A DNA stretch of 64,000 nucleotides from an uncultured Verrucomicrobiota bacterium. GTDB lineage: Bacteria; Verrucomicrobiota; Verrucomicrobiia; Limisphaerales; SIBE01. Where the stretch lies: NCBI GenBank assembly GCA_964578605.1, contig CAZODO010000014.1, positions 6,102 through 70,101 of the forward strand, given 5' to 3'. Numbering within the stretch: the first letter of the stretch is position 1; each line of letters opens with the position of its first letter. Below, in pieces: positions 1 to 61,236 of the stretch. Below the pieces are notes generated by a model. That model saw only the letters and a program-made list of their open reading frames with translations. It ran no database searches and was not told the origin of the DNA. The position numbers and the translations under genes were made by a program.

Positions 1-187
1 GGCTTCCAAAATAGCGTTCGATCTCGATCGTGCCGGCGTCGACCTCGGGGCTGGCGGTTGTGAGAACGTGCACGGCGGCGAAGCCCTCCGGGCCGGGTGG
101 CAGAAGGTGAAAAGCCTCCGGGACAACGGCCCAGGAGGTGCCCAGGGAGCACAGGAGGATAGGACGGTTGGGGGCGGAGGAGCCCAT
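1..187 (-). CDS. CARF-domain protein, N-terminal fragment running off the left edge (Cas_NE0113/Csx-like)
   Basis: My own minus-strand translation from the ATG at 185-187 gives [44 protein letters not shown]... The 'ILLxxLGTSxAVVPE' stretch resembles the first strand-loop of CARF/Rossmann-like CRISPR ancillary proteins. The ATG overlaps the TAA stop of the upstream Card1-like gene (TAATG). It is absent from the ORF track because it is truncated. Confidence 0.4.
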
Positions 188-1392: not shown

Positions 1393-1606
1393 AGGCTGAG
1401 CGACGCGTCAAGGGCAATAGTTCCAGTATCGAGACCAGTCGAGCGAGACGAAGCTTTCGGGGTCGCATTTGGTGGGGCGCCTCCCCCGCAACCTGGCGAG
1501 GCTTGACTTCCGCCCAGCTACGCTGCCGCGGCGCCGCTCAGGGGAGGTTCGCGACCGACGGCTTGGCATGGACGGGGAACGAGGCATACGCATTAAGAAC
1601 ACGCGG

Positions 1607-2422
1607 TCAGAGCGCCTCCCAAGTCTCGGGCTTGCTTCGGTGCCCGCGGAGGAACCGACGCGCTTCTTCCAGAACGCGAGGATCCGATGCAAAGGCCAGC
1701 AAGCGCAGTTGCTTCTCGAGGCGCACCACCTTGAACTTCAGCGCCGAGGCCAGGCGGTCGCGGCCCCGGGCGTAACCAAACACCCAATCGGGACTCTTCA
1801 CCGTGTCGGTCGCCGCGGCACGCAACTTATCCAGTGTCGAACCCACTTCATTCCCCACGAGCATGACGGGCCAGCGGCAGCCGACTTCATCCAGTCGCGC
1901 TCTTAAGGCTTTGGCGGTCTGAGGCGCGGCCCCATTTGCCGGCCAGATGTTGCCTCCGCTCCGGTTGGCACGAAGACCGAGGGCTCCCAGCAGCAGCCAG
2001 GTTTCCAGAGCGTTCACGACTTTGCTTTCCAGTTCGGGCGGCAAAGAGCCGAAACGTGTGAGAATCTCGAGACGGAAACGAGCTCCAGGGGGAAAGGCCG
2101 CTTGGGGGCTTGCCGGGCCACCGTGCTTATGCGGGAGGGTGGGGATATTTGACGGACGCTGTGCTTGGAATCCCCTGATCCTGAAGACAAGCGGAGAAGC
2201 GGTGGCGACTCCTTGAACGCCCCCAAACGCATGTTTCTCCCAAACCCGAATGTTACGTAGGGCTTGCTCGTTCGCGCCGCCCGGCAGCTTCTGGTATTCC
2301 AAGGCCCGGAACCACCATCGAACCACTCCGCGAATGGAGGGTACGCGAAGCTCCGGAGTGTCTTGGTATGCGCCGCGATTGAAGAGCGGGGTGAGAATCT
2401 CGATGTCGCGTTCCCATTGCAT
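1607..2422 (-). CDS. cmr1: Type III-B RAMP protein Cmr1
   Basis: 271 aa. RAMP signature SIRGVVRWWFRAL near the N-terminus and a G-rich loop GALGLRANRSGG. Its start lies 3 nt after the cmr6 stop, and it is the last gene of the cmr2-3-4-5-6-1 string. Confidence 0.7.
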   Translation of the reverse strand: MQWERDIEILTPLFNRGAYQDTPELRVPSIRGVVRWWFRALEYQKLPGGANEQALRNIRVWEKHAFGGVQGVATASPLVFRIRGFQAQRPSNIPTLPHKHGGPASPQAAFPPGARFRLEILTRFGSLPPELESKVVNALETWLLLGALGLRANRSGGNIWPANGAAPQTAKALRARLDEVGCRWPVMLVGNEVGSTLDKLRAAATDTVKSPDWVFGYARGRDRLASALKFKVVRLEKQLRLLAFASDPRVLEEARRFLRGHRSKPETWEAL

Positions 2423-2425
2423 AGT

Positions 2426-3760
2426 TCAGGAGAGCTTAAGGCCGAGGCGGGCCAGAATTTGCTGGCCGGACGTTCCGGCGCGGCCGGATGTGAACGCCTG
2501 CCAGTACGGGCTGTTCTTCCGGAGTCGTTTCCGCTCGTTGGCTGGAACAAGCGATTCAAATGCCTGCCGGAGATTGGCATCGTCCAGCGCGGCCAAGCGG
2601 GGCAGTGCCCCGGGGAAGTTGTCTTTGTTGGCGAGGCTCTTGAACAAAGTGACAACTTCGGTCGCCGGGGTGGCGGCTGTCGTGCGAACGGCTTCCTTCC
2701 GAACCTCCGCTGTAGGCGACCCCACGGCCGTTCTCGATGGAACACGTCCGAGTTCGAACCATCCGTACCCGGCGGCCGTTTTTGCCCCGACGCCCCGACG
2801 AGTCACCGCATCTTCCAGCCAAAGGCGGGCTTGGCCAAGGAGTCCTTCTGAGGTGACATTTGGAACGTGGGGCGCCCTGTTGAGCAAGACGGCAAAACCA
2901 AAAGTTGAACCTGCTTCCACGGCAGGAAAATAGTTCGGCAGGGGACTCTCGGAATCCTCCGCGCGAGCCGCCCTCCCGCTGTAGTACTGTGGATAGTGGG
3001 GGTTAACCATATCTGCAGCAAGGGTTGGAAGCGTGGTGGGATAGGCCGGGAGGAAGCAGGCGCAGCCCTTGAATTCCTCGGCGCCAATTTCTCGGGCCGA
3101 ATTCCGGGCAGACGAAAGGCCGGCTGCCCACGCAAAGTCGCCGGTCACATCGTTCGCACCGTATCCAAACAAGAGCATGGCCGCCAGCAGTTGGCAGTCC
3201 TTCTCCGCTGCCGACGCTTCCTTGATTTCCCACAGGGCGTGCGCCCGAGTGATTCCCTTGACAGCGCTGCCGGGAATCAATGGCAGGCCAAAGCAGCGGT
3301 CGAGAGAAATACCAGCATTCTCAATGACGCCGCCCGCCAGGTTAATCATCACACGACCGCCCAACGTTGCCTCGAAAGTGGCGATCGAACCACCATAGGA
3401 GTGATTCAACTGCTGCAAAAACGATTGGGCGTTCTGGATGCATGCCGCCGAAAGCCGCGACTCCGGTGGAGCGGTGTTCGCCATCTTGTCGGCAATCTCC
3501 GCCTGGCGCAACTGCTTGTCGGCCTTCTCAGGGTTCGCGCTTCTTCTGGCGGAATCGCGCAGGCGCTGGGCATCCCGCCGCAGCAAGTCGGCACCGCGTG
3601 TGACAATCCGCAGAACGCTCCATCGGGCCGCGTCGTCCACTTTAGAGGGCTCACCCCATACTTTTGGCAGGCCAAACTTCTCGTGGAGGAGGGAGCGATT
3701 CTCCACGCCTTCCGCCCAGTTGCCGATCAACTCGGCAACATCCTTAGACATTGGAATCAT
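2426..3760 (-). CDS. cmr6: Type III-B RAMP protein Cmr6 with an unusual C-terminal extension
   Basis: N-terminal NRSLLHEKF block, then FGLPLIPGSAVKGITR and the G-rich loop GVGAKTAAGYGWFE. I chose the ATG at 3760 because it is preceded by GGAGGTGGAA. The longest ORF starts at ATG 3799, and ATG 3751 is another option. Confidence 0.8.
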   Translation of the reverse strand: MIPMSKDVAELIGNWAEGVENRSLLHEKFGLPKVWGEPSKVDDAARWSVLRIVTRGADLLRRDAQRLRDSARRSANPEKADKQLRQAEIADKMANTAPPESRLSAACIQNAQSFLQQLNHSYGGSIATFEATLGGRVMINLAGGVIENAGISLDRCFGLPLIPGSAVKGITRAHALWEIKEASAAEKDCQLLAAMLLFGYGANDVTGDFAWAAGLSSARNSAREIGAEEFKGCACFLPAYPTTLPTLAADMVNPHYPQYYSGRAARAEDSESPLPNYFPAVEAGSTFGFAVLLNRAPHVPNVTSEGLLGQARLWLEDAVTRRGVGAKTAAGYGWFELGRVPSRTAVGSPTAEVRKEAVRTTAATPATEVVTLFKSLANKDNFPGALPRLAALDDANLRQAFESLVPANERKRLRKNSPYWQAFTSGRAGTSGQQILARLGLKLS

Positions 3761-4139
3761 TTCCACCTCCCTCGGGAAGCTGTACGAAACGTCGGGCATA
3801 GCTCAGCCATGCGAGCGCCTCGCTCGTGGCGAGTTTGAGGACTTGGCTGTCGGCCTCCCTGGAGAGGAAGTCCAGCAGCTTGTCCAAGTCATCGGCCTTC
3901 TCGGGTGCGATCCCAATTTCCGGGTGAGCCAGGTGTCGCGCGATACTGTTGAAACAGGACCGCCAGCCGCTGTCTTGCTTTTGGGCGTAGGCGAATGCAC
4001 CCGCTGCCAGGAGCCCATTGCTCATGACGAGCGCCGGAAGCTTGCTCAGGACGTTGCCGCCTTGCTTGCCTCGCGTGTTCTCTCCCGCTCTGGCATAGGC
4101 GAGAGCGTTGGCCGCTCGGATCTGTTCAAGATTCTTCAT
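3744..4139 (-). CDS. cmr5: Type III-B small subunit Cmr5
   Basis: About 131-aa ORF between cmr4 and cmr6 (MKNLEQIRAANALAYA...LPALVMSNGLLAAGAFAYA). Size and position fit Cmr5. The ATG at 4139 lies 7 nt after the cmr4 stop. Confidence 0.7.
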   Translation of the reverse strand: MKNLEQIRAANALAYARAGENTRGKQGGNVLSKLPALVMSNGLLAAGAFAYAQKQDSGWRSCFNSIARHLAHPEIGIAPEKADDLDKLLDFLSREADSQVLKLATSEALAWLSYARRFVQLPEGGGNDSNV

Positions 4140-4146
4140 GTGCTTG

Positions 4147-5007
4147 TCATGCAAGTTTGACGGTGCAAAAACCAAGTCCGGTTGTTCCGTCCCCGCCGAA
4201 CTGCAGGAGCGGCCTTCTTAGGAAGAGATCGATGAGGAGGTCCAATTCGCCGTTCTCGCGGGCCAGAGTTGTCAGTGGGGCGAAGAACAGTGCTTCGGCG
4301 GGAACGGCTTCGAGGTTGAACAGAGCACTCGGCTTGACGGTTCCTTTCTGTGGATCAATCCCGACGTGTTGGCTGACTTCACAGGCCTGCTGGACGAAAT
4401 GGGCAAAATCACCGTTGCTCAGCAAAACAAATCGCCCTTTCGCGGCTTGCCAGACCTGGTCATCCAGAAGCTTCAGCAATTCCGTTTCCCAATTCCCTGG
4501 AAAGCGGCCCGTTTCGTCTGCGGTTCGGGAAAACTTATACTCTTCGAGCACCACCCCGGTCTTGCCGTTACGGGTAGTGGTCACAAGGTCACCGGCCAGG
4601 CAAGACATGTCACGCGGTTCATCGGGAACCTCGACATCCGCCAATCCACCATGATCCCGTTTCAATCGATCCAAAGCCAGAGGACATGTTGCCATCGCAA
4701 AGCTGCCTTTGGCCGAGCGGACGGGAAACGTCAGCAGCTTGCCTTCGCCGAACGACACTCTACCGGCGCTGAACTCCTTCGAGCCGCTACCGTAGCCTTC
4801 GCCAAAAATGTCATTGACGCGCGTCGTGGTCTTTGGGTCCCGAGTGGCTGCATCGCGTAGAACGCCTTTCAAGCTTGTTCCCGGAATCACCGGGAACCCG
4901 GTATGGCGCTCTCGGACGATGGGTTGGTCGATGGCGCCGACGCTGGCGCCGGCGCCCACGTGCAGGGGCGTTCGTGTGAACAGATAGAGGATTCTGGTTT
5001 GGTTCAT
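4147..5007 (-). CDS. cmr4: Type III-B backbone RAMP Cmr4
   Basis: 286 aa. LFTRTPLHVGAG...GAIDQPIVRE...FPVIPGTSLKGVLRD, with a C-terminal G-rich loop FGGDGTTGLGF. Confidence 0.85.
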   Translation of the reverse strand: MNQTRILYLFTRTPLHVGAGASVGAIDQPIVRERHTGFPVIPGTSLKGVLRDAATRDPKTTTRVNDIFGEGYGSGSKEFSAGRVSFGEGKLLTFPVRSAKGSFAMATCPLALDRLKRDHGGLADVEVPDEPRDMSCLAGDLVTTTRNGKTGVVLEEYKFSRTADETGRFPGNWETELLKLLDDQVWQAAKGRFVLLSNGDFAHFVQQACEVSQHVGIDPQKGTVKPSALFNLEAVPAEALFFAPLTTLARENGELDLLIDLFLRRPLLQFGGDGTTGLGFCTVKLA

Positions 5008-5030
5008 AGCTGGATTCTACTTGGGACGGG

Positions 5031-6518
5031 TTACAATCGCGGTTCGGCGGACGTCCTGTGACGTGCGGTGCCGGTTGGGTCGGAAGGTTCGATCAGGGGT
5101 TCGGACTGGCGGCAGAACTCCCATGTCCCGCAGACCCCCAGTCCAAAGCCTTTCTCCCCCATGAGGGTGCTGCGCCGGTTCTTGATCTCCGAACCCTCGC
5201 CTTCGCCGTGCCAGTTGAGGGCGTTCGCGAGGGCGTCTGCGGATGCCTCGCTCTCCGCTTCGAAATAGTAAACGGCACCGGCTGGCACAGCCAGGTGCGT
5301 GGATTTGGCGCCGCCTTGGGACCGATCGGTGTCATTGGGGAGCGCCCAACCGGTGACCACGAGGGGCTTCGGCACTAGCGCGGCCACCAACCGGGCGCCG
5401 ATGGCGGTCGTCCCTTCCTCGCTGTTGTAGCCCTTGCCGGAATAGTTCAGCGAGCGCCGCTCTTTTCTGACCGCCTCGGGGACGGTGCGCAACAAGACCG
5501 CGCCGGTTTCCGGGGAAATCCAGTTGGGCAGCCAGCCGCCAGGATGGCCGCGGACGGTGGTGCCGCGTGGCGAAACTCCGGGGCGAATCTCGGGCCACAG
5601 TGCGGGCGATAACAGGACCCATTTCACGAGCCAGCGGCGTCGCCCTTCAGAATCGGAAGTCGTGAATCCGCCGGTCAATCCTCGCGGGAGGGGCAAACCA
5701 TCGGTGGGCGCGTCTTCGCGAGTCGCGGTACACACGCGTTGCTGACCGCCCACGACAATTCGGGCCGGACGGCCGTCCAAGAGGTCGAGGATCAGGTCGT
5801 GCTTCGCGTGTTCCGGTGAAAGGCGTTTATCCTCCGCGCGGGCGACGAGGCCAAGTCGGAATCCCTCGCGCAACCGAAGGTAGTGGGCGGAGTAAATCTG
5901 GCCCTCGGCGCTTCCCCGGCCGGTGGTTTGGGTTTCGGGATCGATGGCGATGCCGATCTGGGCTTCGCGATCGGCGATCTGTTCGTCTTCCAGAAAATCC
6001 GTGACCCTGTCGAACGTATCCCCCCGAAGGTAGGCTTCATAGGCGTGGCGGCTGATCCAAGGCTCGCCCCCCGCGTTCTTGTCCGGCGCCTGCGTGTTGG
6101 CGACCGCGTAGAGAAGGGGAAGGGGAAGGGAACTGTCCTTTCTCCAGTTCCCGGTCGCGGGCTGGAGTGTTACGCATACCGATCCAAGAGTCTGCGCGTC
6201 TTTTGGGCGGGGGAAGAACCATTTGTTTTCAGGACTGAGAGATCCGTTCGACGACAAGACCCGCACAGGGAACGGGCCGACGGTGGCAAGCGCACCGAAC
6301 TTGCGGTCTCGGTGATCGTCCTGATAATGGCCGCTGCGTCCTCGCCGGTGAGAATGGGCTTCTGCGGCAAAACCCGCGCGCCAAAGCGCTGCGTGCAAGG
6401 CGTGGCTGGTGACGTCCGGGAGAGGCCAGGCGGCACTGTGCCCGGCGAGCGAGCCGGACATGGGGCGCCCGTCGCGGAAGAAGAGCACGTCAGTGGGTTG
6501 CAGATAGATCAAGTGCAT
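5031..6518 (-). CDS. cmr3: Type III-B Cmr3
   Basis: 495 aa. N-terminal LQPTDVLFFRDGRPM and C-terminal GEKGFGLGVCG. Its start lies 2 nt after the cas10 stop. Confidence 0.75.
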   Translation of the reverse strand: MHLIYLQPTDVLFFRDGRPMSGSLAGHSAAWPLPDVTSHALHAALWRAGFAAEAHSHRRGRSGHYQDDHRDRKFGALATVGPFPVRVLSSNGSLSPENKWFFPRPKDAQTLGSVCVTLQPATGNWRKDSSLPLPLLYAVANTQAPDKNAGGEPWISRHAYEAYLRGDTFDRVTDFLEDEQIADREAQIGIAIDPETQTTGRGSAEGQIYSAHYLRLREGFRLGLVARAEDKRLSPEHAKHDLILDLLDGRPARIVVGGQQRVCTATREDAPTDGLPLPRGLTGGFTTSDSEGRRRWLVKWVLLSPALWPEIRPGVSPRGTTVRGHPGGWLPNWISPETGAVLLRTVPEAVRKERRSLNYSGKGYNSEEGTTAIGARLVAALVPKPLVVTGWALPNDTDRSQGGAKSTHLAVPAGAVYYFEAESEASADALANALNWHGEGEGSEIKNRRSTLMGEKGFGLGVCGTWEFCRQSEPLIEPSDPTGTARHRTSAEPRL

Positions 6519-6520
6519 GG

Positions 6521-9500
6521 CTAGGCCGGTGAGGTTGGTTTGGCGAAAGGCTCGGATGGGATCGGTGTGGAAGGCGGTACTTCGCCAGGCTGGGAGCGGT
6601 TTCTGTCAACAAAGGCCGCCGTTTGGCAAAGCCCGATCAGCGCCCGGAGCGGTGCATCGACGGGCAGTCGTTCCAACCGCCGTTGGGCGTGAGGGGCAAG
6701 GCGAGCCCAGCCGCCTCGCTCGGCTTTCGCTTGATCCAGGGCGCCTTGGGCACCTCGACGGACGGTCTCCAGATAGCCCACGAGCGGCGATGTGTCCCCC
6801 GTGGGAGGTTCCGTCATGGACGCCAATCCCGTCCCGGCATTCCCGGGGTGTCCTTGCCCTTGCCGCTCCAGGGCATGGCGGATTTCACGGAGGGCAATGT
6901 CAACGACTGGGAATCCGTCAACCGCGGCGAGACTCTCGCCAGAGAGCGCGCTGGTCTCGGTCAGGTAAGGTTGAAGCAACTCGATGACCCGGTGGGGAAA
7001 TCTGCCGCTGACCTCGCCCGATCCCATGGCCTGCATGATCGCGTCGTAGACTTCCAGACCTCCAGAATCCCATTGGCACCCCCATTCGATGATTTCGCCG
7101 GAGCGTTTCATCAAGGTGACCGCCACGGCGCGCCGCCCCAATTGGTTCTTGGCCCGTTTCTCGGCCGATTGGGCCGCCCGCACCACGTCCTGCAGCGGCG
7201 ATTTGAAATGGGCGATCGCGATCCCCACAGAGCAATCGGCGGCCGGGCCGGGGACGAGGAAGGGAATTGGACGCCCGCGCTGGTCCTTCCCCTCGGGCGA
7301 GACCAGGAAGCCCGGTCCTTGGTTTTGGAAAAGAGTTTCACCGCCAGGGCCTGCCACGGGGCGGCCCTGGAAGGCGGTGCGCAGAGCGCTCGCGCATTTC
7401 AGGGCCGCTTCCGCGGGAACGAAGGCGAGGACGTCGTCGCCCCCCGCGTAAACCAGGCGGCCCTGGAAAGCTTCGATGATCGGCCGGGCGCAGCGCAGGG
7501 CGAAATTGCTGAGCGCCTCGCTAAACTGCAGGTGGTAGCTCGGTGAGACAAGGCGGCGCGTGCCCAACAAGCCCTTGAAGCGGGCTTGAAGCATGCCGTG
7601 CCCATCCGGATCGCTCGCCCGGCGAAAATACTCCAGGGCCCCTTGAGGCTGCGACTCTGTGCTGTCCAGGTAGGCGGCAAACTGGGTTTCGTAAAAGGGC
7701 GTCCTGTCTCCGGAGATCCATCGGCCGATCTGATCACCGTCAAGCGCCATGACGGCAAAGTACTTACCGCCAGGTGTGTCATCGTCCGTGGTTTCCAGGC
7801 TATCCTCTGAATCGTTTGCGAAGGGCTGACTCGCGGCAATGGCGCGGGTGTTGGGCATAGGGAATTGGCTCCGATTCGCTTTGAGGCGCCATTTCTCGTG
7901 GAGCCAAGACCAATGCCAAACACGTTTGACCAGGGTGATGGCTCCCACTTCATCGTCGTGCTTGAAAAGCCTCCCCCATTCGGAATCCAGCTTTGAAACT
8001 CTTTCGACGAAGCCTGAGCCGCCAAAGAGCATCTCCTCGCGGCCGGTCAGCGCGTCTTTGTTTTGCGCCACACCTGGCTCGTGCTGGTCCCCGTGGTCCC
8101 AGGCGGGAAACTTGCGAGTTTGGCGCACACTGTCCAGTTCCCACGACGCAAGCGCAGCGGCCAGTGCCCAGGCCAGGCCGCGATTGTTGAGCTGATCCCT
8201 CGGGCCCCCCTCGCCGTCGACGTAGTAGCGGGGATCTCGATGGTCGATGGGCATCGCCCCAGTTGCCGCGGCTTTGACCATGTCGAATCGTTGCAGCAGG
8301 TCTGGTTCAGTCTTGGAGTCGCCCGCGGCAGCCTGGGGTTCTGACCCACTCCGGTCAGGCTCAAGCCGAGGAAGTTGTTTTGCCAGCGTGCGCGCCTGTT
8401 CCAGCGTTTCTGGCCACGCGAAACTGTGCCAGGACATATCGAGGAGCCGGCGGGTGTGTGCGTGGAATCGGTCCTCGGCCGCTTTGCGATTCAGTGCGGG
8501 CGGGAGGAACTCAAGCAGGCCTCCATCTGCGACCTTATCCCAGACGGACCGGCAGATGGCGCGCCATTCCGCTTGGATGGCGTCGGAGACGATGGCGCCG
8601 AGTTCGGCCGCGCGTGGCGCGGGCACGACAGCGAAGAAGACGTTCGGTAAACTCGGCGTGAGCAGATCCATGTCGGAATTCCCGCCCCCTTGGCTCCGGC
8701 GGGTTGACCAGGCGTTTCCATGGATGAATTCCCACACCGGTTGGCTGCCAATTCGCACTTTGCTCCAAAGTTCGTCCCGCCAGAGCAGATCGAAGAGGGG
8801 TTGCCCACGGAGGTTGGGAAAAATCACGGTGTCCGGCCCAACCTCCTCCGCCAGGCGCTTGATGCCGGCGGCCATGAGCCACGACAGGAGATAGCTGCCG
8901 CTCCAGAGGTCCCGAGTGCTGCGGGCCTGGGCAATGAATTCCTGAACTGGGCCGAGCTGGAATTTGAGAAAAGCCGGTCGCAGAGGGGCTTGGCGCAATG
9001 CACGGCTCAACGCCTCAGGAGAATCGAAGTCGGCCGCGCCCTCCACGAGGGCGGTCCCGGCGAGGGCAGATACGACGGCGTTGTGATTCCAGATTGTATG
9101 ATCCGGAAGGCGCGTATCGGCGGGGAGGAACGCGAAACGCGCGTCGTACTCCTCCGCAAAACCGGGCCAGAGCCGCCAATGGGCAAAGAAGCGCGCTCTC
9201 CAGAGTTGGGCTTCGTCCCAATCTTCGGGCCACTGACGCAAGACAGGCTGAACACAGGCGTCAGTCCCTTCCAGAGCGTCATAGCCCGTAACTTCGTCCC
9301 CTGGCCCAAACCTCAGGACAGCGTCTTTCGTTTCGGTCCTGTCGGGGCCCATGGGGTGATGGAACCCGGCTCGGACCCCGTCAAACGCGCAGGTCAATCC
9401 CGCGCTCCGCGACGCTGGAAACGGGAACCGGTCCGCGCTGGAGGCGGTGATGTCCGCCTGCTTGCTGAACGCCCGGAGTTCCTCGTCCGTAAAGCCGGCT

Positions 9501-9613
9501 GCTCGCATCGCTGATTCGGAGCGCAGTTCGTGGGTTCGAATATCCGCGCACTTGCTCGGTGGATCATGGAGATAGGCCAGAAGTTTTCTTTTCCAGAAGG
9601 TGGCGTTGTTCAT
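6521..9613 (-). CDS. cas10: Cas10/Cmr2 large subunit (HD-like N-terminus plus cyclase palm)
   Basis: 1030 aa. N-terminal KLLAYLHDPPSK (HD dipeptide where Cmr2 proteins carry it). Palm motifs MALDGDQIG and YAGGDDVLAFVP (GGDD). Confidence 0.85.
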   Translation of the reverse strand: MNNATFWKRKLLAYLHDPPSKCADIRTHELRSESAMRAAGFTDEELRAFSKQADITASSADRFPFPASRSAGLTCAFDGVRAGFHHPMGPDRTETKDAVLRFGPGDEVTGYDALEGTDACVQPVLRQWPEDWDEAQLWRARFFAHWRLWPGFAEEYDARFAFLPADTRLPDHTIWNHNAVVSALAGTALVEGAADFDSPEALSRALRQAPLRPAFLKFQLGPVQEFIAQARSTRDLWSGSYLLSWLMAAGIKRLAEEVGPDTVIFPNLRGQPLFDLLWRDELWSKVRIGSQPVWEFIHGNAWSTRRSQGGGNSDMDLLTPSLPNVFFAVVPAPRAAELGAIVSDAIQAEWRAICRSVWDKVADGGLLEFLPPALNRKAAEDRFHAHTRRLLDMSWHSFAWPETLEQARTLAKQLPRLEPDRSGSEPQAAAGDSKTEPDLLQRFDMVKAAATGAMPIDHRDPRYYVDGEGGPRDQLNNRGLAWALAAALASWELDSVRQTRKFPAWDHGDQHEPGVAQNKDALTGREEMLFGGSGFVERVSKLDSEWGRLFKHDDEVGAITLVKRVWHWSWLHEKWRLKANRSQFPMPNTRAIAASQPFANDSEDSLETTDDDTPGGKYFAVMALDGDQIGRWISGDRTPFYETQFAAYLDSTESQPQGALEYFRRASDPDGHGMLQARFKGLLGTRRLVSPSYHLQFSEALSNFALRCARPIIEAFQGRLVYAGGDDVLAFVPAEAALKCASALRTAFQGRPVAGPGGETLFQNQGPGFLVSPEGKDQRGRPIPFLVPGPAADCSVGIAIAHFKSPLQDVVRAAQSAEKRAKNQLGRRAVAVTLMKRSGEIIEWGCQWDSGGLEVYDAIMQAMGSGEVSGRFPHRVIELLQPYLTETSALSGESLAAVDGFPVVDIALREIRHALERQGQGHPGNAGTGLASMTEPPTGDTSPLVGYLETVRRGAQGALDQAKAERGGWARLAPHAQRRLERLPVDAPLRALIGLCQTAAFVDRNRSQPGEVPPSTPIPSEPFAKPTSPA

Positions 9614-15466: not shown

Positions 15467-15563
15467 CCATCCATTCTCGAAGAATTAGACATCAACCGCA
15501 ATCAAACTCGCTGCATATTCGACGGCCAACGTATGCAAGCGAAAACCGACCTCCTTTCGATGT

Positions 15564-15651
15564 AAACACAATCGATACACAATCGATACACAATAACGAT
15601 TGTGTTTCCATAGTGTTAGCAATGCGTATCTGATGCGTTTAAATCGAATGG
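15564..15651. repeat. Phased 11-bp tandem array A (about 7-8 units, forward then inverted)
   Basis: In strict 11-bp register: aaacacaatcg / atacacaatcg / atacacaataa / cgattgtgttt / ccatagtgtta / gcaatgcgtat / ctgatgcgttt. Dyad at acacaat-aacg-attgtgt. Confidence 0.8.
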
Positions 15652-15836
15652 AGCGCCTGACCGCTGCGGAACAACCACGCCTAAACATTTGCGGGTTGAT
15701 TGATTCGGAACTCGGAGTTCTTTCGGCGCCTTAGGTCTTCGGTCTTCGGGCTTTCCCGCGCCTCTCTTCCCTCACGGGATCGCCGGCTGTTCACCGTGGT
15801 TGGAACCAACGGTGAGAGAAGACCTTTATGCAGAGG

Positions 15837-30967: not shown

Positions 30968-31504
30968 TCAGCCGCCGAACAGGGCCCGGGCGACCGCCAG
31001 GAGGAACTGAGCCACAAAGAAAAAGGCCGTCCCTGCCGCAAACACCAGCGCAAGAAACGCCGCGGCAAGCCAGAAAACGATCTGGCGCGCAGGGCGTTCG
31101 GGTGTCGCCGGATTGTAATGCTGATCCAGAAGGCGCAAGTTCCTGATGTTCGCCTTCCAGACCGCGTCAAAGATATCGCCCAAGACGGGAAAAGTCCCCA
31201 CGAGCGCTTCCACGGCGAGATTGCCCATCATTTTGGCGAGTACCTTCTTTTGCAGGCCAAGGCGAGCCGATTCGTACACGAGGTAAAATGAGATGACCAT
31301 CCCGACTACGTCGCCCAACCCAGGCAGAACTCCGAGAAGCGGGTCCAAACCGATCCGGTACCCGCTCGGCAGCACGATCGACTGGTCCATCAGGACGCTC
31401 CATGACCGGATGCGCCGGTAACGGGGATTTTCGGGATAGACGATCCGCTGGGCGCGTTTCCCATCCGCATGTGCGCTGGATTGTGTCGTGAGTTGTTCGT
31501 TCAT
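30968..31504 (-). CDS. DUF4112-family membrane protein
   Basis: LPGLGDVVGMVISFYLVYESARLG...VGTFPVLGDIFDAVWKANIRNL. Start set to ATG 31504 (MNEQL...). The longer ORF reads through repeat array B. Confidence 0.65.
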   Translation of the reverse strand: MNEQLTTQSSAHADGKRAQRIVYPENPRYRRIRSWSVLMDQSIVLPSGYRIGLDPLLGVLPGLGDVVGMVISFYLVYESARLGLQKKVLAKMMGNLAVEALVGTFPVLGDIFDAVWKANIRNLRLLDQHYNPATPERPARQIVFWLAAAFLALVFAAGTAFFFVAQFLLAVARALFGG

Positions 31505-31583
31505 CCTGGCTCTTTGCTTTGAGCAGGGTAACACCAAACCGCTGGTCAAGCCACGAGGCTGCCAGTTGACGCCGCATAGACTA

Positions 31584-31704
31584 TAAACGCACGCTAAACG
31601 CACGCTAAACGCACGATAAACGCACGATAAACGCACGATAAACGCACGATAAACGCATGTATACATGAGTTTACCATGTGTTTAACATGAGTATGACATG
31701 TGTA
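31584..31704. repeat. Phased 11-bp tandem array B (11 units, 121 bp)
   Basis: taaacgcacgc x2, taaacgcacga x4, taaacgcatgt, atacatgagtt, taccatgtgtt, taacatgagta, tgacatgtgta, all in 11-bp register. Lies 80 bp upstream of the DUF4112 ATG. Confidence 0.95.
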
Positions 31705-31909
31705 ATTATTGGATGGCTGGCGGATGCGGTTCAGCAAAACCTCGGATCGGCCTTAAGCCCTTTCCCAACCGGCCGCCCTCGCGCGCAACTATCCAGGCGG
31801 CAAAACCGGGCATGGGATGGGTTCGCCAACGGATCGCCAATTATCCCCGGCCGTTGAACACGGTGAAAACCTACGGGGCGGATGGCGGCTGGTTCTCTGC
31901 GGTCGCGGC

Positions 31910-33649
31910 TCAAGAGTTGCCGCATTCCAGGACCGACATGCCCACCAGCTCGATGTGGTTGTCGCTCGAGAGCCGCAAGACGCGAAACCGGAGACAATCG
32001 AACTCGACGACGGCGTCCAGGGTCGTCCCTTCGGGCCCAAGTTCGCGGCGCATCACGTCGTGGAGCGTCGTCTCGGGAGGCGCGTCGATGTGAATGGAAT
32101 AGAACGCCTCCAGCTCGCCGACGGTTGTCGTGCCTCGGAACGGGAACTCGACATCGGTCGGCACTGTTGAAGATTCGTCAGGGTTCTTGCCAAACACCTG
32201 GTCCACGAGCGATTCCGTTCCTGGCCGAAGCACAAGCATGATGTGATCGCCCGCGTGAATGCGGGTGCTTCCTTGCGGAGGGATGACCTTTCCGTCGCGG
32301 GCGATGAGGGCGATGACGACCCCGCCCGGGAGAGCCAACTCTCTGACAAGGCGCCCGGCCGCCCGAGAGTCTTCGCTAAGGGCGTAATCGACCACTTTCC
32401 CGTCTACTTTGCGAAGGGAACTGATCTCGAGAGTGACGGGCGGTTCAGGATCTCGCGGGCGCTCCAGGCCGAGCAGCCTGGCCGCGGGAGTTAGGCTGGC
32501 CCCCTGGAGCATGGCGGAGACGACCACGATGAAGAACACCACGTCGAAAAGCAGCGACGCCTGCAATGAAATCTCCGGCGTCGCGAGCATCAGGGGGAAG
32601 GTCGCCAGCGTGATCGGCACCGCTCCTTTCAACCCGACCCACGAAAGGAACGTGAGCTCCCGCCAGCTGAACTTGAACGGGAGCGCCGAAATCCAAACGG
32701 CAACGGGTCGCGCCACCAGCATCAAGACCACGCTGACCAGGAGGGCTTTGCCGCTGACCTCCAACAGCCGGCTCGGAAAGCACAGCAGGCCCAGGGTGAC
32801 GAACATGATGATCTGGGCCAGCCAGGCAATCGCGTCATGGAACCGGCGGATTCCTTGCTGGAAAGATAACGGCCGGTTCCCGATCACCACCCCCGCCAGG
32901 TAGACCGCCAGGAAGCCACTCCCGTTCAGGTGAGCCGCGAGCCCGTAGATCACAAGGCAACAGGCGCTCACGAGGACCGGATACATCCCGGTGGCGCCGA
33001 GTTCGATGCGGTTGACGACCCAAGCGGATGCAACCCCTCCGATCAGGCCGAGAACCGCTCCGATCAGCATTTGTGAGGCGAACAAGCCCAGCAGACCGGG
33101 TCCGAGCGATACGTTGCCGAGCAGGAGTTCAATGCAGCCCACGGTCAGGAAGATCGCCATCGGGTCGTTGGAGGCGCTTTCCACTTCCAGCACGGCCGAG
33201 ATCCGCTTCGGCAGCCCAACCCCACCCCAACGCAGGATCGAGAACACGGCGGAAGCGTCGGTAGACCCAACGATGCTCCCCAGCAGAAACCCTTCCAGCA
33301 GGGAGATGCCAAGGATCCAGGAAGCCGCCACGCCCGTGATAGCGGCGGTCACCAGGACCCCCAGCGTAGCCAACAGAACGGACGGCTGCCAGGCCACCCG
33401 AATTGCACTCAGCGACGTGCCAAGCCCGCCGTCGAAGAGGATTGCCGCCAGCGCGATCGTTCCCACGGCATGCGCAAGCCGGTAATTCTCAAATTCAATG
33501 CCCCCAATGCCTTCCGATCCCGCCACAATGCCGACGACAAGGAACAGGACCAGTACAGGCACGCCGAGGCGAGTCGATAACTTGCTGGAAGCAATGCCCA
33601 GCAAGAGCAACACGCCCGTCACGAGAATCAGAGTGTCAACTGCGAACAT
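31910..33649 (-). CDS. K+/H+ antiporter (CPA1, NhaP2/CvrA-like) with a C-terminal TrkA-C domain
   Basis: Multi-transmembrane N-terminus (MFAVDTLILVTGVLLLLGIASSKLSTRLGVPVLV...) and a soluble C-terminal regulatory domain (...IHAGDHIMLV). Start set to ATG 33649. Confidence 0.8.
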   Translation of the reverse strand: MFAVDTLILVTGVLLLLGIASSKLSTRLGVPVLVLFLVVGIVAGSEGIGGIEFENYRLAHAVGTIALAAILFDGGLGTSLSAIRVAWQPSVLLATLGVLVTAAITGVAASWILGISLLEGFLLGSIVGSTDASAVFSILRWGGVGLPKRISAVLEVESASNDPMAIFLTVGCIELLLGNVSLGPGLLGLFASQMLIGAVLGLIGGVASAWVVNRIELGATGMYPVLVSACCLVIYGLAAHLNGSGFLAVYLAGVVIGNRPLSFQQGIRRFHDAIAWLAQIIMFVTLGLLCFPSRLLEVSGKALLVSVVLMLVARPVAVWISALPFKFSWRELTFLSWVGLKGAVPITLATFPLMLATPEISLQASLLFDVVFFIVVVSAMLQGASLTPAARLLGLERPRDPEPPVTLEISSLRKVDGKVVDYALSEDSRAAGRLVRELALPGGVVIALIARDGKVIPPQGSTRIHAGDHIMLVLRPGTESLVDQVFGKNPDESSTVPTDVEFPFRGTTTVGELEAFYSIHIDAPPETTLHDVMRRELGPEGTTLDAVVEFDCLRFRVLRLSSDNHIELVGMSVLECGNS

Positions 33650-33963
33650 CCGCCGGCGAATCCGCCCCTGAGACACACCTCCGACAGGAGTCACGGAAAC
33701 CGCAATAGCCTAGGAGGTTCGACACCGTTTGGGAAGCCCTGTTGATCGGGATGGGACACTTTTCGCTAGAGCGGGCGCAAATCCGGCCTTCGGCCGCCCC
33801 GCGGACCGCTATCGCAAGCGCATTTTCGTCGAAGTTCCCGGCGGCTTTGACGAGACCCAGCCCGCGTGTTAGGGTCAGCCATTCACGGGGGGCGCCAATG
33901 AGCAATGATCAGTAAAGCCCCACGGCCACCGAGGCGGCTTGGCCTCGCGCATTGAAAGCATTC

Positions 33964-44836: not shown

Positions 44837-45817
44837 TCACCTCCCTGCCATCCGGCGCGCTTTTAGCTCCTTCCAGGTTGTCAGGATGATGCCTTTTTCC
44901 TCGATGGCGCGTTTCACCCTCGGATCGGTCAGGGCTTTAAGATCTTCGCCCCTGGCCGCACTCGAGCCCGTGACGAGGGGGAATTCATCCGTCGGCTTCG
45001 AAGCATGGAAGATAATCTCGGTTACGCCTGGCTTGAGTTCGTCGAACAAGGCGATTAAGCGTTCGACTTTGTCGCCGCGATGCCCGGTGAATTCGGTATA
45101 AAGATCGTCCAGGACTGGCAGGCCGGCGTTCCAGACCCGCTCCGCCCATGCCTCGAGCAGCGCGGCCAGTTGGCGTTCCTCGATCGAAAGGTGCGCGGCT
45201 TTGGGGCTCACGATCAGGATGGGTAGGTTCTTCTCCATTCCGAGCTTCGCGTAACGCTCGAAGAAGTCCGGGCGGGCGAACAAAGTCCCCATGTGCGAGT
45301 CGAGGTGGGTGATGGGGATGTTCAAACGCTCGGCGCGTTCAACTTGGGCGCGCATCTCACGCTCGATCTCGTCGGCGGAAGCCGACCGCGCGACTTGTTG
45401 GACGGACGGCCACAGGCAACCTTCGGCATCCACGAGGCCGGGCACTTGCGATTTGCCTGCCAGGGGTGCCCAGCGGTAGCGCTTCCACTCGGACGTCAGC
45501 GTCAGGTGCACCCCGGCGTCCAATTCCGAATGCGCCTGGAGATGATGCGCCATTTCGGGCACCCACGGACAGGGCATCATGAGGCTAAACGACGTCCCCA
45601 CGCCGTTCGCGGTCGCTTCAATGGCACCCAAATTGGACGAATGCGACATCCCGGCATCGTCAATGTGAAGGATGACCACCACGTCGGCCGGTTTCCATCC
45701 CAGTCGTTCGGCGTAGGTCTGGCTCATGACGTTTTGCGCTCCCAGGCTCGCCACCAGGAGCGCCAGGAGAAGTCCAGATTTGAGACACGCGCCGCGCCAA
45801 ATGGCTATCGATTGCAT
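44837..45817 (-). CDS. YdjC/ChbG-family carbohydrate deacetylase, secreted
   Basis: VVILHIDDAGMSHSSN and THLDSHMG. Start set to ATG 45817, which gives a signal peptide (MQSIAIWRGACLKSGLLLALLVASLGAQ). Confidence 0.7.
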   Translation of the reverse strand: MQSIAIWRGACLKSGLLLALLVASLGAQNVMSQTYAERLGWKPADVVVILHIDDAGMSHSSNLGAIEATANGVGTSFSLMMPCPWVPEMAHHLQAHSELDAGVHLTLTSEWKRYRWAPLAGKSQVPGLVDAEGCLWPSVQQVARSASADEIEREMRAQVERAERLNIPITHLDSHMGTLFARPDFFERYAKLGMEKNLPILIVSPKAAHLSIEERQLAALLEAWAERVWNAGLPVLDDLYTEFTGHRGDKVERLIALFDELKPGVTEIIFHASKPTDEFPLVTGSSAARGEDLKALTDPRVKRAIEEKGIILTTWKELKARRMAGR

Positions 45818-45908
45818 ATGGCCGATTAGACCAGGAAAGACCGGCGTCCGGAAGCAGATTCCCGTGAATCGACGCGCTCTCCCACTCTTCTGCTCCGCCG
45901 CTCCTCCC

Positions 45909-46029
45909 GGTCTTAACACGGTCTTGACACGGTCGTCACCCGGTGATCACCCGGTGATCACCCGATCACGAACGGGTGATCTACGGGTGAACTACGGGTG
46001 AACTACGGGTGAACTACGGGTGAACCCCG
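45909..46029. repeat. Phased 11-bp tandem array C (11 units, 121 bp)
   Basis: ggtcttaacac / ggtcttgacac / ggtcgtcaccc / ggtgatcaccc x2 / gatcacgaacg / ggtgatctacg / ggtgaactacg x3 / ggtgaaccccg. The unit ggtgatcacc is itself a 10-bp palindrome. Confidence 0.95.
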
Positions 46030-46130
46030 TGAGGACCTGGAAAGGAGATCGGCAGCGGCGGTGTGCCAATCGATAACCGGGTGGGGGTCGCGTATCGCCC
46101 GCGTATTGGGGAGGACCACTGCAAGAATCG

Positions 46131-60992: not shown

Positions 60993-61029
60993 ACCCGGGA
61001 ACAGAACAAACGCGGGCCAGGATTCAGTC

Positions 61030-61150
61030 TAAACGCACGCTAAACGCACGCTAAACACATGCTAAATACACGATATACACATGATAAACGCATGAAAACA
61101 TGAGTTTGTCATGTGTGTAACATGTGTTTATCGTGCGTTTCTATCGAATA
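61030..61150. repeat. Phased 11-bp tandem array D (11 units, 121 bp), same family as array B
   Basis: taaacgcacgc x2 / taaacacatgc / taaatacacga / tatacacatga / taaacgcatga / aaacatgagtt / tgtcatgtgtg / taacatgtgtt / tatcgtgcgtt / tctatcgaata. The first 27 nt are identical to the start of array B. Confidence 0.9.
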
Positions 61151-61236
61151 CGATGCCTTGCCGCCCCCTGTTCTCTTCCGGTCTTCCTTGCACCCGGCGC
61201 TTGATCACGCCTCGCCCCGAACGCATTTTCCATCTC

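What the first reader, a model, noticed from the sequence alone, without database searches (positions are those of the whole stretch)
31584..31704. Array B: eleven 11-bp units (121 bp) upstream of the DUF4112 gene
The array starts with near-perfect units: taaacgcacgc x2, then taaacgcacga x4. It then drifts through taaacgcatgt and atacatgagtt into inverted-type units (taccatgtgtt, taacatgagta, tgacatgtgta). It contains the quasi-palindrome acatgagtttaccatgtgt (31663-31681), which recurs almost identically in array D. The high identity of neighbouring units suggests recent slippage-type expansion. The array makes a spurious CVYRAF-repeat N-terminal extension on the annotated ORF.
Basis: seen in the sequence. 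Interest (0 to 1): 0.6.

Follow-up and report, generated by a model that had tools for sequence, protein, structure and literature searches.

The report
Dispersed foldback 11-bp repeat element
The 121-bp array is real and non-coding. It is one copy of a family of small palindromic repeat elements built from 11-bp (one helical turn) units, scattered through the genomes of uncultured Limisphaerales (Verrucomicrobiota) bacteria, whose unit number changes, most simply by slippage; which protein reads these elements, and what they do, is still unknown.

Summary
Array B exists exactly as described (window 31584-31704, period 11), far beyond chance. Period 11 is the only strong tandem period in the 64-kb window. 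It is not a drifting microsatellite. It is a structured foldback: seven forward units TAAACGCACGN, a 4-bp centre, exactly four inverted units CATGNGTTTAN, then a terminal motif. Arrays A and D in the window, and the orthologue of D in a 9.9-Mb relative, share this plan. Arrays built on the same plan with the same unit occur at seven loci of a Limisphaerales MAG and in several metagenome contigs. Sludge metagenomes hold the B/D unit at about 30-100 times flank depth, with many different flanks. Array C's unit is far more abundant. B lies 30 nt upstream of a promoter-like block that DUF4112 orthologues conserve, but those orthologues lack the array. One wetland read carries two units fewer. The 232-aa ORF through the array is spurious (orthologues start at MNEQ, 177-178 aa). 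Best reading (0.5): a copy of a dispersed MITE/REP-like foldback element whose phased units are protein-binding sites, with unit number changing by slippage. Main rival (0.25): operator arrays for an OmpR/PhoB-type regulator. No transposase, target-site duplication or binding protein was identified.

The parts
31584..31660 (+). Forward arm of array B: seven head-to-tail 11-bp units (TAAACGCACGC x2, TAAACGCACGA x4, TAAACGCATGT).
31660..31663 (.). Centre of the foldback (TATA), between the last forward 10-mer TAAACGCATG and the first inverted 10-mer CATGAGTTTA. The equivalent centres are AAAA in D and TCAT in locus L017.
31664..31707 (+). Inverted arm: four 11-bp units (CATGAGTTTAC, CATGTGTTTAA, CATGAGTATGA, CATGTGTAATT). 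These are the reverse complement of TAAAC-N-CAYG units. Arms 31620-31661 and 31662-31703 are 71% complementary.
31708..31714 (+). Terminal motif ATTGGAT, a variant of the ATCGAAT that follows the fourth inverted unit in arrays A and D (ATCGGAA in D').
31525..31553 (-). Promoter-like block of the DUF4112 gene: TGGCTT (31553-31548), 17 nt, TACCCT (31530-31525). It is conserved in orthologues that lack the array. The array ends 30 nt upstream of it. The assignment as a promoter is inferred.
30968..31504 (-). DUF4112 gene, 178 aa, true start ATG at 31504 (MNEQ...). The 232-aa ORF that reaches 31666 is an artefact of the open frame across the array.
61030..61149 (+). Array D, sister copy of B: six forward units, centre AAAA (61095-61098), four inverted units (61099-61142), terminal ATCGAAT (61143-61149). 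Outer inverted arms 61022-61066 and 61105-61149. It lies about 95 nt upstream of the likely true start of a SAM methyltransferase gene (about 61237).
15551..15653 (+). Array A, same superfamily: forward units ACACAATCGAT, four degenerate inverted units drifting towards GATGCGTTTAA, terminal ATCGAAT (15643-15649). Outer inverted arms 15551-15594 and 15610-15653.
45906..46031 (+). Array C, a second family with the same plan (11-bp units, two inverted arms): GGTGATCACCC / ACGGGTGAACT (reverse complement GTTCACCCGTA). It is extremely abundant in sludge metagenomes.

Best explanation
Array B is one copy of a multi-copy, lineage-restricted intergenic repeat element of uncultured Limisphaerales (Verrucomicrobiota).

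Each copy is a foldback. It has a variable run of head-to-tail 11-bp units (TAAACGCACGN), a 3-4-bp centre, a fixed run of about four units in inverse orientation, and a short terminal motif.

Shown:
- It is non-coding.
- It lies 30 nt upstream of a promoter-like block that DUF4112 orthologues conserve.
- It is absent from the same position in relatives.
- Its unit number differs between populations, and between orthologous copies of array D.
- The same unit and the same plan recur at unrelated loci in this genome and in other genomes.

Inferred:
- Copies spread as whole elements, MITE/REP-like, through a trans-acting protein not yet identified. The forward arm is then expanded and homogenised by slipped-strand mispairing.
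- The units are spaced exactly one helical turn apart and the unit sequence is kept across species. They are therefore most likely stacked recognition sites for one sequence-specific DNA-binding protein lined up on one face of the helix.
- Any effect on the DUF4112 promoter (changing upstream spacing by whole turns, recruiting a protein, or forming a hairpin in read-through RNA) is a side effect, not the reason the array exists.
For: - Whole-element homology. A, B, D and D' all have four inverted units after a 3-4-bp centre, followed by ATCGAAT or a close variant. Forward arms have 3, 7, 6 and 4 units. B and D share the same junction, TAAACGCATG-N4-CATGAGTTTnnCATGTGT.
- Outer inverted arms reach beyond the units: A 15551-15594/15610-15653 and D 61022-61066/61105-61149.
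- Dispersal. Word depth over the B/D units is 100-640 against 3-8 on the flanks, with 26-66 contigs carrying different flanks in two sludge runs. Their loose ends show the same forward-then-CATGAGTTTA layout.
- Seven loci in a Limisphaerales MAG carry the same unit and plan, plus a shared left terminus GTTCWACCCGCACGC. Further metagenome contigs do too.
- A second family (C) with the same plan reaches depth 1100-4800 against 3-10.
- Gain and loss. B is absent upstream of DUF4112 in relatives at 83%, 69% and 66% protein identity. C is absent in relatives at 86% and 71%. D is present in a relative at 86% but absent (54-bp spacer) in one at 66%.
- There is no functional theme among the flanking genes.
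- The window has no minimal two-unit sites outside the big arrays.
- Slippage: a precise 22-bp deletion in X3, and D against D' differ by whole units.
- A and D fold with z-scores near -6 and B with -3.5 on the minus strand.
Against: - No transposase, RAYT or other mobilising gene was linked to any copy. The IS next to the array in L021 has its own, unrelated terminal repeats.
- No target-site duplication could be recognised, and the ends are defined only by short motifs.
- B's own left flank shows no clear terminal repeat.
- Copy number in the source genome is inferred from metagenome word depth, which may pool related organisms.
- Hairpin potential is not kept in all family members (z from -6.3 to +2.0).
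- Array D has stayed at one locus in two species, with its forward units better conserved than the flanks. That also fits a selected cis-regulatory site.
- No clearly convergent (promoter-free) location was proven among about 14 arrays.
Confidence: 0.5

Rival explanations
1. Operator arrays of a regulon. The 11-bp units are direct-repeat binding sites for a winged-helix response regulator of the OmpR/PhoB type (or another protein that polymerises along one face of the DNA). It nucleates at the central inverted pair and spreads outwards. Unit number would tune the occupancy and activity of the adjacent promoter. Families A/B/D and C would belong to paralogous regulators.
For: - The spacing is exactly 11 bp centre to centre, as in ArcA boxes (2-5 direct repeats; PMC3798270) and Streptomyces PhoP direct-repeat units (11 nt, up to 6-8 per operator, cooperative spreading from core units; PMC2275107).
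- The C unit GTTCACCCGTA matches the PhoP consensus G(G/T)TCAYYYR(G/C)G at 9 of 11 positions.
- B lies 30 nt upstream of a conserved -35-like hexamer. D and D' lie upstream of a conserved promoter-like block.
- The unit sequence is conserved across genomes and at the orthologous D locus, more than the flanks are.
- Most arrays lie in intergenic regions that contain a gene start.
Against: - There are no simple two-unit sites anywhere else in 64 kb.
- Seven perfect units plus a fixed four-unit inverted arm and shared terminal motifs are not expected of independently evolved operators.
- Downstream genes have no common function: der, DUF4112, YdjC, a methyltransferase, trigger factor, ExbB, an RRM protein.
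- Orthologous promoters of close relatives do without the array.
- Copy numbers, especially of C, are high for a regulon.
- The orientation of the long arm relative to the gene is not consistent (B proximal, D distal).
Confidence: 0.25
2. RNA-level hairpin element, REP-like. The array is transcribed as part of read-through or 3'-UTR RNA. Its two arms pair into a long hairpin that terminates transcription or protects mRNA from exonucleases. The 11-nt period matches one turn of an A-form helix.
For: - Long hairpins centred on a 4-nt loop are predicted: D -49 kcal/mol (z -6.4), A z -5.7, C z -5.1, B minus strand -43.8 (z -3.5).
- D starts 37 nt after a stop codon, L059 8 nt after one, L021 41 nt after one.
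- B's hairpin is much better on the strand that would be transcribed from the upstream antiporter gene.
Against: - Hairpin potential is absent in several family members: L005, L016, L026 and L021 have z >= -0.2.
- B's extra, recently homogenised forward units are not mirrored in the other arm.
- There is no U-tract.
- No Rfam family matches.
- No RNA data are available.
- B is 206 nt and C 434 nt from the preceding stop codon.
Confidence: 0.1
3. Purely local, neutral minisatellite. The array arose in place by slipped-strand mispairing and has no relatives and no reader protein.
For: Neighbouring units are near-identical and there is a two-unit length polymorphism. A single unit-like GCTACACACGT lies in the array-free orthologous spacer of L112.
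Against: - The same unit and the same foldback plan occur at many unrelated loci and in other genomes.
- Only period 11 forms arrays in the window.
Confidence: 0.05
4. Assembly artefact, or coding sequence: the long ORF 30968-31666 is translated through the array.
For: Short-read contigs break inside the forward arm. An ATG-initiated 232-aa ORF exists.
Against: - Independent runs reproduce both junctions of the array, and one read spans it whole. D is reproduced without differences.
- Orthologues are 177-184 aa and start at MNE. The extension is not conserved, and a unit of 11 bp is not a multiple of 3, so the two-unit variant shifts the frame.
Confidence: 0.02

Closest known systems
BrickBuilt MITE/minisatellite of Porphyromonas gingivalis (PMC4596501)
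   Same: A dispersed, strictly intergenic, non-coding element. It consists of head-to-tail short repeats without spacers, flanked by leader and tail parts with small inverted-repeat ends. It has about 19 copies, a variable number of units, and no linked transposase.
   Different: - BrickBuilt's unit is 23 nt and all units face one way.
- Here the unit is 11 bp (one helical turn) and the array folds back on itself, with a fixed four-unit inverted arm.
- Several unit families coexist here.
- The host is Verrucomicrobiota, not Bacteroidota.
REP / REPIN elements and their clusters (GTAG- and CGTC-tagged palindromic repeats; PMC3733652)
   Same: High-copy intergenic palindromic repeats. They often lie downstream of genes, come in several families per genome, form head-to-head dimers, are sometimes reiterated in tandem, are reported from the PVC superphylum, and show presence/absence differences between relatives.
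   Different: - A REP unit is itself a 20-40-nt stem-loop with a GTAG or CGTC tag. The B unit is an 11-bp non-palindrome without such a tag. (The C unit does read GTAG-TTCACCC, which is only a lead.)
- No RAYT gene was seen.
Multi-repeat operators of OmpR/PhoB-family response regulators (ArcA, PMC3798270; Streptomyces PhoP direct-repeat units, PMC2275107)
   Same: Direct repeats at exactly 11 bp centre to centre. A conserved core alternates with variable linker positions. The number of repeats varies, degenerate outer repeats occur, and the sites lie near promoters.
   Different: - Known operators have 2-8 units, usually degenerate, and exist mostly as minimal two-unit sites across a functional regulon.
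- Here there are runs of up to seven identical units plus an inverted arm and terminal motifs, no minimal sites, and no functional theme.
Eukaryotic Foldback-type transposons (Drosophila FB, Galileo, Tetris; abstracts listed, otherwise my own knowledge)
   Same: Long inverted arms that are themselves made of short tandem subrepeats. The arms are unequal and variable in length, and many copies carry little or nothing between them.
   Different: - Those are eukaryotic, kilobase-scale elements with known or suspected transposases.
- To my knowledge nothing of this plan has been described in bacteria, and no homology is implied.
Abundant intergenic short direct repeats of unknown function (TAACTGA heptamer sets of Beggiatoaceae, Cyanobacteria and Bacteroidetes, PMC4679880; cyanobacterial STRR heptamers, from memory)
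   Same: One short unit is reiterated in tandem at more than 100 intergenic loci. Downstream genes have no functional theme, the reader protein is unknown, and the phylogenetic distribution is patchy.
   Different: - Those are 7-nt units, all direct, mostly just upstream of start codons.
- Here the period is 11 bp and the plan is a foldback.
Plasmid R1 parC centromere (ten 11-bp direct repeats bound by ParR; from memory, not checked here)
   Same: Contiguous 11-bp iterons that load a filament of a small DNA-binding protein around a promoter.
   Different: - parC is a single locus next to parMR on a plasmid, and all its repeats are direct.
- Here there are dozens of chromosomal copies with no par genes nearby.

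Membership tests
[quoted passage not shown] | Short (under about 600 bp), non-coding, in multiple copies at unrelated loci | tested here: met
   The elements are about 100-135 bp with no conserved ORF. Copies are B and D (plus A) in the window, seven loci in a MAG, further metagenome contigs, and 26-66 contigs with different flanks per sludge run.
[quoted passage not shown] | Terminal inverted repeats | tested here: inconclusive
   Inverted arms of 42-48 nt (70-76% complementary) reach the outer ends in A and D, including TTCGAT...ATCGAA and ATTCAGTC...TATCGAAT. B has the inverted arm and the terminal motif but no clear matching left terminus.
[quoted passage not shown] | Target-site duplication flanking each copy | tested here: inconclusive
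   No direct repeat was recognisable next to A, B, D or the MAG copies on inspection. The ends are too loosely defined to decide, and no formal scan for direct repeats was run. The empty site in L112 is too diverged to align.
[quoted passage not shown] | A cognate autonomous element or transposase with the same ends | not testable with these tools
   No whole genome could be scanned. The only transposase next to a copy (L021) has unrelated terminal repeats.
REP / REPIN | The unit is itself a 20-40-nt imperfect palindrome (stem-loop) | tested here: not met
   The unit TAAACGCACGN is 11 bp and not self-complementary. Only the whole array folds.
REP / REPIN | Conserved GTAG or CGTC tetranucleotide at one end of the unit | tested here: not met
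   Neither tag is present in B/D units (CGTG/CATG instead). Units of family C do contain GTAG.
REP / REPIN | Association with a RAYT (IS200/IS605-like) gene flanked by the repeats | not testable with these tools
   None was found among the 46 window ORFs scanned against Pfam, which cover most but not all predicted genes. The rest of the genome is unavailable.
OmpR/PhoB-type response-regulator operator | Direct repeats spaced 10-11 bp centre to centre | tested here: met
   All units within each arm are spaced exactly 11 bp apart.
OmpR/PhoB-type response-regulator operator | Sites overlap or adjoin the -35 region of regulated promoters, and the regulon is functionally coherent | tested here: inconclusive
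   B ends 30 nt upstream of a conserved -35-like hexamer. The flanking genes have no theme, and orthologous promoters lack the array.
OmpR/PhoB-type response-regulator operator | Bound by a cognate phosphorylated regulator | not testable with these tools
   This needs a gel shift, DAP-seq or ChIP.
Contingency locus (simple-sequence-repeat phase variation) | The repeat lies inside an ORF or between the -35 and -10 elements, so that unit changes switch expression on and off | tested here: not met
   The array lies upstream of the -35-like hexamer and outside the real ORF. An 11-bp change keeps the helical phase.
Contingency locus (simple-sequence-repeat phase variation) | Unit-number polymorphism within or between populations | tested here: met
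   A precise 22-bp deletion is seen in one otherwise identical 151-nt contig of run X3, at depth 2. This is a single observation.
Plasmid iterons / parC-type centromere | A single locus next to rep or par genes on a replicon | tested here: not met
   The context is chromosomal with many copies and no rep or par genes nearby. There is no match in the plasmid or phage collections.
Known RNA family (Rfam) | A match at the gathering score | tested here: not met
   There are no matches in the window at gathering threshold. Only chance miRNA-hairpin hits appear, far below threshold.

The most novel reading that the evidence does not exclude
Limisphaerales genomes carry a class of genetic element not yet described in bacteria: foldback arrays assembled from one-helical-turn (11-bp) modules. 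There are at least two unrelated unit families (TAAACGCACG and GTTCACCCGTA) in dozens to hundreds of copies. Each family would be read by a dedicated oligomerising DNA-binding protein, either a new kind of transposase or recombinase, or a domesticated regulator. Slippage of whole helical turns would provide a built-in, phase-neutral way of tuning occupancy next to promoters.
Probability: 0.3. Interest if true: 0.75.

Novelty: new variant of a known kind. Interest (0 to 1): 0.55.

Why it matters
If the reading is right, these arrays add a new structural type to the short list of bacterial dispersed repeats (REP, MITE, STRR, BrickBuilt). This type has a module exactly one DNA turn long, and its two arms fold back on each other.

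- **Annotation.** The arrays create spurious ORF extensions, such as the 232-aa DUF4112 call. They also break short-read assemblies of an abundant wastewater and sediment lineage.
- **Strain typing.** They are ready-made variable-number markers for tracking strains of uncultured Verrucomicrobiota.
- **Mechanism.** They point to an unknown protein that recognises phased 11-bp sites. They also offer a natural series (2 to 7 forward units) for asking how whole-turn insertions upstream of a promoter affect transcription.
- **Genome rearrangement.** B and C both lie where gene order differs from that of relatives, so the elements may also mark or cause rearrangements.

Tried and rejected
- **Coding extension.** Rejected: orthologues start at MNE and are 177-184 aa.
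- **Known RNA.** Rfam gave nothing at gathering score. An E-value search gave only sub-threshold miRNA-like hairpin hits.
- **Phage or plasmid origin.** There were no hits for the unit patterns in viral contigs and no blastn hit in the plasmid or phage collections.
- **RNA evidence.** No RNA run could be listed.
- **More length alleles.** Runs X5-X12 gave no spanning contigs.
- **sigma-54 promoter downstream of B** (TGGCAG-N5-TGGCTT). Considered by eye and dropped, because the -24 GG is not kept in L029.
- **Xer/dif-like site at the B centre.** The resemblance is limited to TATACAT and is absent in D, so it was dropped.
- **Transposase next to the L021 copy.** That IS has its own terminal repeats (CCGAATGGCGCTTAG) about 80 nt away from the array, so it is unrelated.
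- **Lachnospiraceae and Treponema hits to the same 21-mer**. In Lachnospiraceae it is one orthologous spot directly after the stop codon of a 550-aa ORF that was not scanned against Pfam. There AAACGCACG/CGTGCGTTT forms a terminator-like palindrome. I treat it as a coincidence of sequence, not as family membership.
- **Flanking genes.** A search for a functional theme, or for a regulator gene beside the arrays, found none.
- **Intrinsic-curvature calculation.** Not attempted, because I could not vouch for wedge-angle parameters from memory.
- **Crude gene finder.** My own finder was too noisy to settle whether any copy lies between convergent genes.

Full report
**1.
Tandem Repeats Finder reports 31583-31657 (period 11, 6.8 copies, 96% matches, score 136) and 31663-31700 (period 11). 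I scanned lags 4-30 across the whole 64-kb window (61.5% G+C). Only period 11 and its double produce strong arrays, at three places: B, C (45906-46026) and D (61029-61140). TRF also finds a weaker array A at 15566-15594. TAAACGCACG with at most 1 mismatch occurs 13 times against 2.8 expected (0 of 100 shuffles reach that number), and 11 of the 13 lie in B or D. The quasi-palindrome at 31663-31681 recurs with two changes at 61098-61116.

**2. Anatomy: a foldback, not a drift.**
Read in register, B has four parts:
- seven forward units (TAAACGCACGC x2, TAAACGCACGA x4, TAAACGCATGT; 31584-31660);
- a centre TATA (31660-31663);
- four units in inverse orientation (CATGAGTTTAC, CATGTGTTTAA, CATGAGTATGA, CATGTGTAATT; 31664-31707);
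- a terminal ATTGGAT (31708-31714).

The inverted-repeat finder pairs 31620-31661 with 31662-31703 (42 nt, 71% complementary).

D is built the same way. It has six forward units, centre AAAA, four inverted units, then ATCGAAT (61143-61149). B and D are most alike when aligned on the centre. Both have TAAACGCATG as the innermost forward unit, then CATGAGTTT, then CATGTGT.

A has another forward unit (ACACAATCGAT). It again has four inverted units, which drift towards GATGCGTTTAA, and then an exact ATCGAAT (15643-15649). Its outer arms, 15551-15594 and 15610-15653, pair.

So A, B and D share a plan: a variable forward arm (3, 7 and 6 units), a fixed four-unit inverted arm, and a common right end. 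C has a different unit (GGTGATCACCC / ACGGGTGAACT, reverse complement GTTCACCCGTA) but also has two inverted arms of 11-bp units.

**3. Context.**
B lies between two minus-strand genes. Upstream is a Na+/H+-exchanger-family antiporter with a TrkA-C domain (31910-33694). Downstream is the DUF4112 gene.
- The real DUF4112 start is ATG 31504. The protein on record for this contig is 178 aa, and orthologues are 177-184 aa, the closest beginning MNE. The 232-aa ORF that runs into the array (MYTCVYRAF...) is therefore an artefact.
- Between the array and the ATG lies a block conserved in the orthologues at 83% and 69% identity: TGGCTT (31553-31548), 17 nt, TACCCT (31530-31525), then AGGATGAACGA. I read this block as the core promoter. 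That is an inference.
- The array ends 30 nt upstream of that block.
- None of the three orthologous loci (L029, L030, L032) has the array, and their upstream neighbour gene differs. B therefore lies at a break in gene order.

**4. B belongs to a dispersed family.**
- I laid Logan contigs of two sludge metagenomes on the region. Word depth is 100-128 and 380-414 over the forward units, against 3-8 on the flanks. 39 and 66 contigs continue into many different flanks.
- The same holds at D: 130-166 and 506-643 against 4-6, with 26 and 51 contigs. The loose ends read ...CATGAGTTTACCATGAATTTATCATG and similar, which is the same forward-then-inverted layout.
- A scan of one genome per GTDB species found the two-unit pattern at seven loci of one MAG (Limisphaerales bacterium MAG_MBR_H125.5). 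None of them is the window.
- Each of those seven has 2-6 perfect CTAAACGCACG units, a 4-bp centre (for example TAAACGCACG-TCAT-CGTGCGTTTA in L017), and about four degenerate inverted units that keep CGTG or CATG at 11-bp phase.
- Several share a left terminus GTTCWACCCGCACGC, and three share CCGAG after the fourth inverted unit.
- More copies occur in metagenome contigs L021, L059, L096 and L105.
- Family C is far more abundant: depth 1100-4800 against 3-10, with 46 and 153 contigs. Family A is nearly unique.
- These depths may pool related organisms, so 'dozens' of copies for B/D and 'up to hundreds' for C are rough estimates.

**5. Turnover.**
- The methyltransferase downstream of D has an 86%-identical orthologue on a 9.9-Mb contig of a Verrucomicrobiia MAG, in conserved gene order. 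That intergenic region carries an orthologous array with 4+4 units and the terminus ATCGGAA.
- In the pairwise alignment the forward units are better conserved than the spacer to their left, and the two arrays differ by whole units.
- A 66%-identical orthologue (L112) has only a 54-bp spacer and no array.
- C is missing upstream of the YdjC orthologues at 86% and 71% identity.
- Within the species, one 151-nt contig from a wetland run spans the whole of B. It has a clean 22-bp (two-unit) deletion and no other difference. Other runs gave no spanning sequence.
- Taken together: arrays are gained at new loci, persist for a while (D has heterogeneous units), and expand or contract by whole units (B has six identical cores).

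**6. What does not fit a simple operator, and what does.**
Against a simple operator:
- There are no minimal two-unit sites elsewhere in the window for either unit family.
- Genes next to arrays have no common function: der, DUF4112, YdjC, a methyltransferase, trigger factor, ExbB, an RRM protein, DUF3160, a hydrolase.
- The long arm is next to the gene at B and away from it at D.

For an operator:
- The 11-bp spacing is exactly that of OmpR/PhoB-family direct repeats (ArcA; Streptomyces PhoP).
- The C unit matches the PhoP consensus at 9 of 11 positions.
- B and D lie upstream of promoter-like blocks.
- I could not prove any copy to lie between convergent genes.

**7. Hairpins.**
As RNA, D folds to -49 kcal/mol on either strand (z -6.4), A has z -5.7, and C has z -5.1. 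B gives -43.8 kcal/mol (z -3.5) on the minus strand but only z -0.7 on the plus strand. Among other family members z ranges from -6.3 (L105) to +2.0 (L016). Pairing of the arms is therefore a feature of well-preserved copies, not a universally maintained one. No Rfam family matches, and no RNA data could be found.

**8. Verdict.**
The shared whole-element plan, the shared termini, the many unrelated insertion contexts, the gain and loss between relatives, and the coexistence of several unit families built to one design together fit best a dispersed, MITE/REP-like foldback element. Its forward arm is further remodelled by slippage (confidence 0.5).

The exact one-turn period and the cross-species constancy of the unit imply a sequence-specific protein that reads successive units on one face of the helix. 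Whether that protein is a mobilising enzyme or a host regulator is open.

The regulon-operator reading is the main rival (0.25). An RNA hairpin role is possible (0.1). Local neutral slippage, artefact and coding are effectively excluded.

The closest described element is BrickBuilt of P. gingivalis. The foldback plan resembles eukaryotic Foldback transposons in form only. I found no paper describing such arrays in Limisphaerales.

Noticed in passing
window 45906-46031: Array C (GGTGATCACCC / ACGGGTGAACT, reverse complement GTTCACCCGTA) belongs to a far more abundant family than B. Word depth reaches 1100-4800 against 3-10 on the flanks in two sludge runs, with 46 and 153 contigs. Its unit matches the Streptomyces PhoP direct-repeat consensus at 9 of 11 positions and contains GTAG. 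It is absent upstream of YdjC orthologues at 86% and 71% identity.
   Followed up: partly
window 15702-15764: Another dispersed repeat, at 10-17 times flank depth with many different flanks. It has a short palindrome GGAACTCGGAGTTC followed by heptamer repeats GGTCTTC GGTCTTC GGGCTTT (TRF 15730-15753, period 7).
   Followed up: no
window 1-9613: A type III-B (Cmr) CRISPR-Cas gene set on the minus strand: a CARF (Card1-like) protein, two RAMP proteins, Cmr3, and Cas10/Cmr2. TRF detected no CRISPR repeat-spacer array in the window.
   Followed up: no
window 61111-61237: The methyltransferase ORF is probably called too long. Homologues are about 340 aa and cover 92% of the 369-aa reading, which puts the start near ATG 61237. 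A conserved block (GCTTGATC, 17 nt, CATTTT) ends only 7 nt before that ATG, which would suggest a leaderless or very short-leader transcript.
   Followed up: partly
window 45780-45815 and L109 9965-10000: Directly upstream of the ydjC-like start codon, GGTCTTTCCTGGTCTAATCGG (two GGTCT motifs 11 bp apart) is conserved in the 86% orthologue that lacks array C. The outermost units of array C's left arm read GGTCTTAACAC and GGTCTTGACAC.
   Followed up: no
L010 1836-1866, L014 2808-2840 and about 60 other gut-metagenome loci: In Lachnospiraceae the identical unit occurs as TAAACGCACGATAAACGCACGCGTGCGTTTA (two direct copies plus one inverted copy, no spacer). In L014 it follows directly on the stop codon of a 550-aa ORF (not scanned against Pfam), with a variable right flank. 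A separate Treponema locus carries two direct copies. This is probably a terminator-like palindrome and a coincidence of sequence.
   Followed up: partly
L112 2975-2990: The array-free 54-bp spacer at the locus orthologous to D contains a single unit-like GCTACACACGT. This could be chance, or a seed from which an array could grow in place.
   Followed up: no
L029 3790-3870: Upstream of the 83% DUF4112 orthologue there is no TAAACGCACG array. There is an A+T-rich stretch with a weak 11-bp rhythm (ccatatagcaa ccatagagcat...), below the thresholds of my periodicity scan.
   Followed up: no
L021 771-2663: An IS element (DDE_Tnp_1 transposase; terminal repeats CCGAATGGCGCTTAG) is inserted about 80 nt from a B-type array. 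This contig is labelled Nitrosomonadales but carries a Limisphaerales-type array, so it may be mis-binned.
   Followed up: partly
window 31682-31709: A sigma-70-like match (TTAACA, 16 nt, AATTAT with an upstream TG) lies inside the inverted arm of B. It points away from DUF4112, antisense to the 3' end of the antiporter gene. This is a consensus match only.
   Followed up: no
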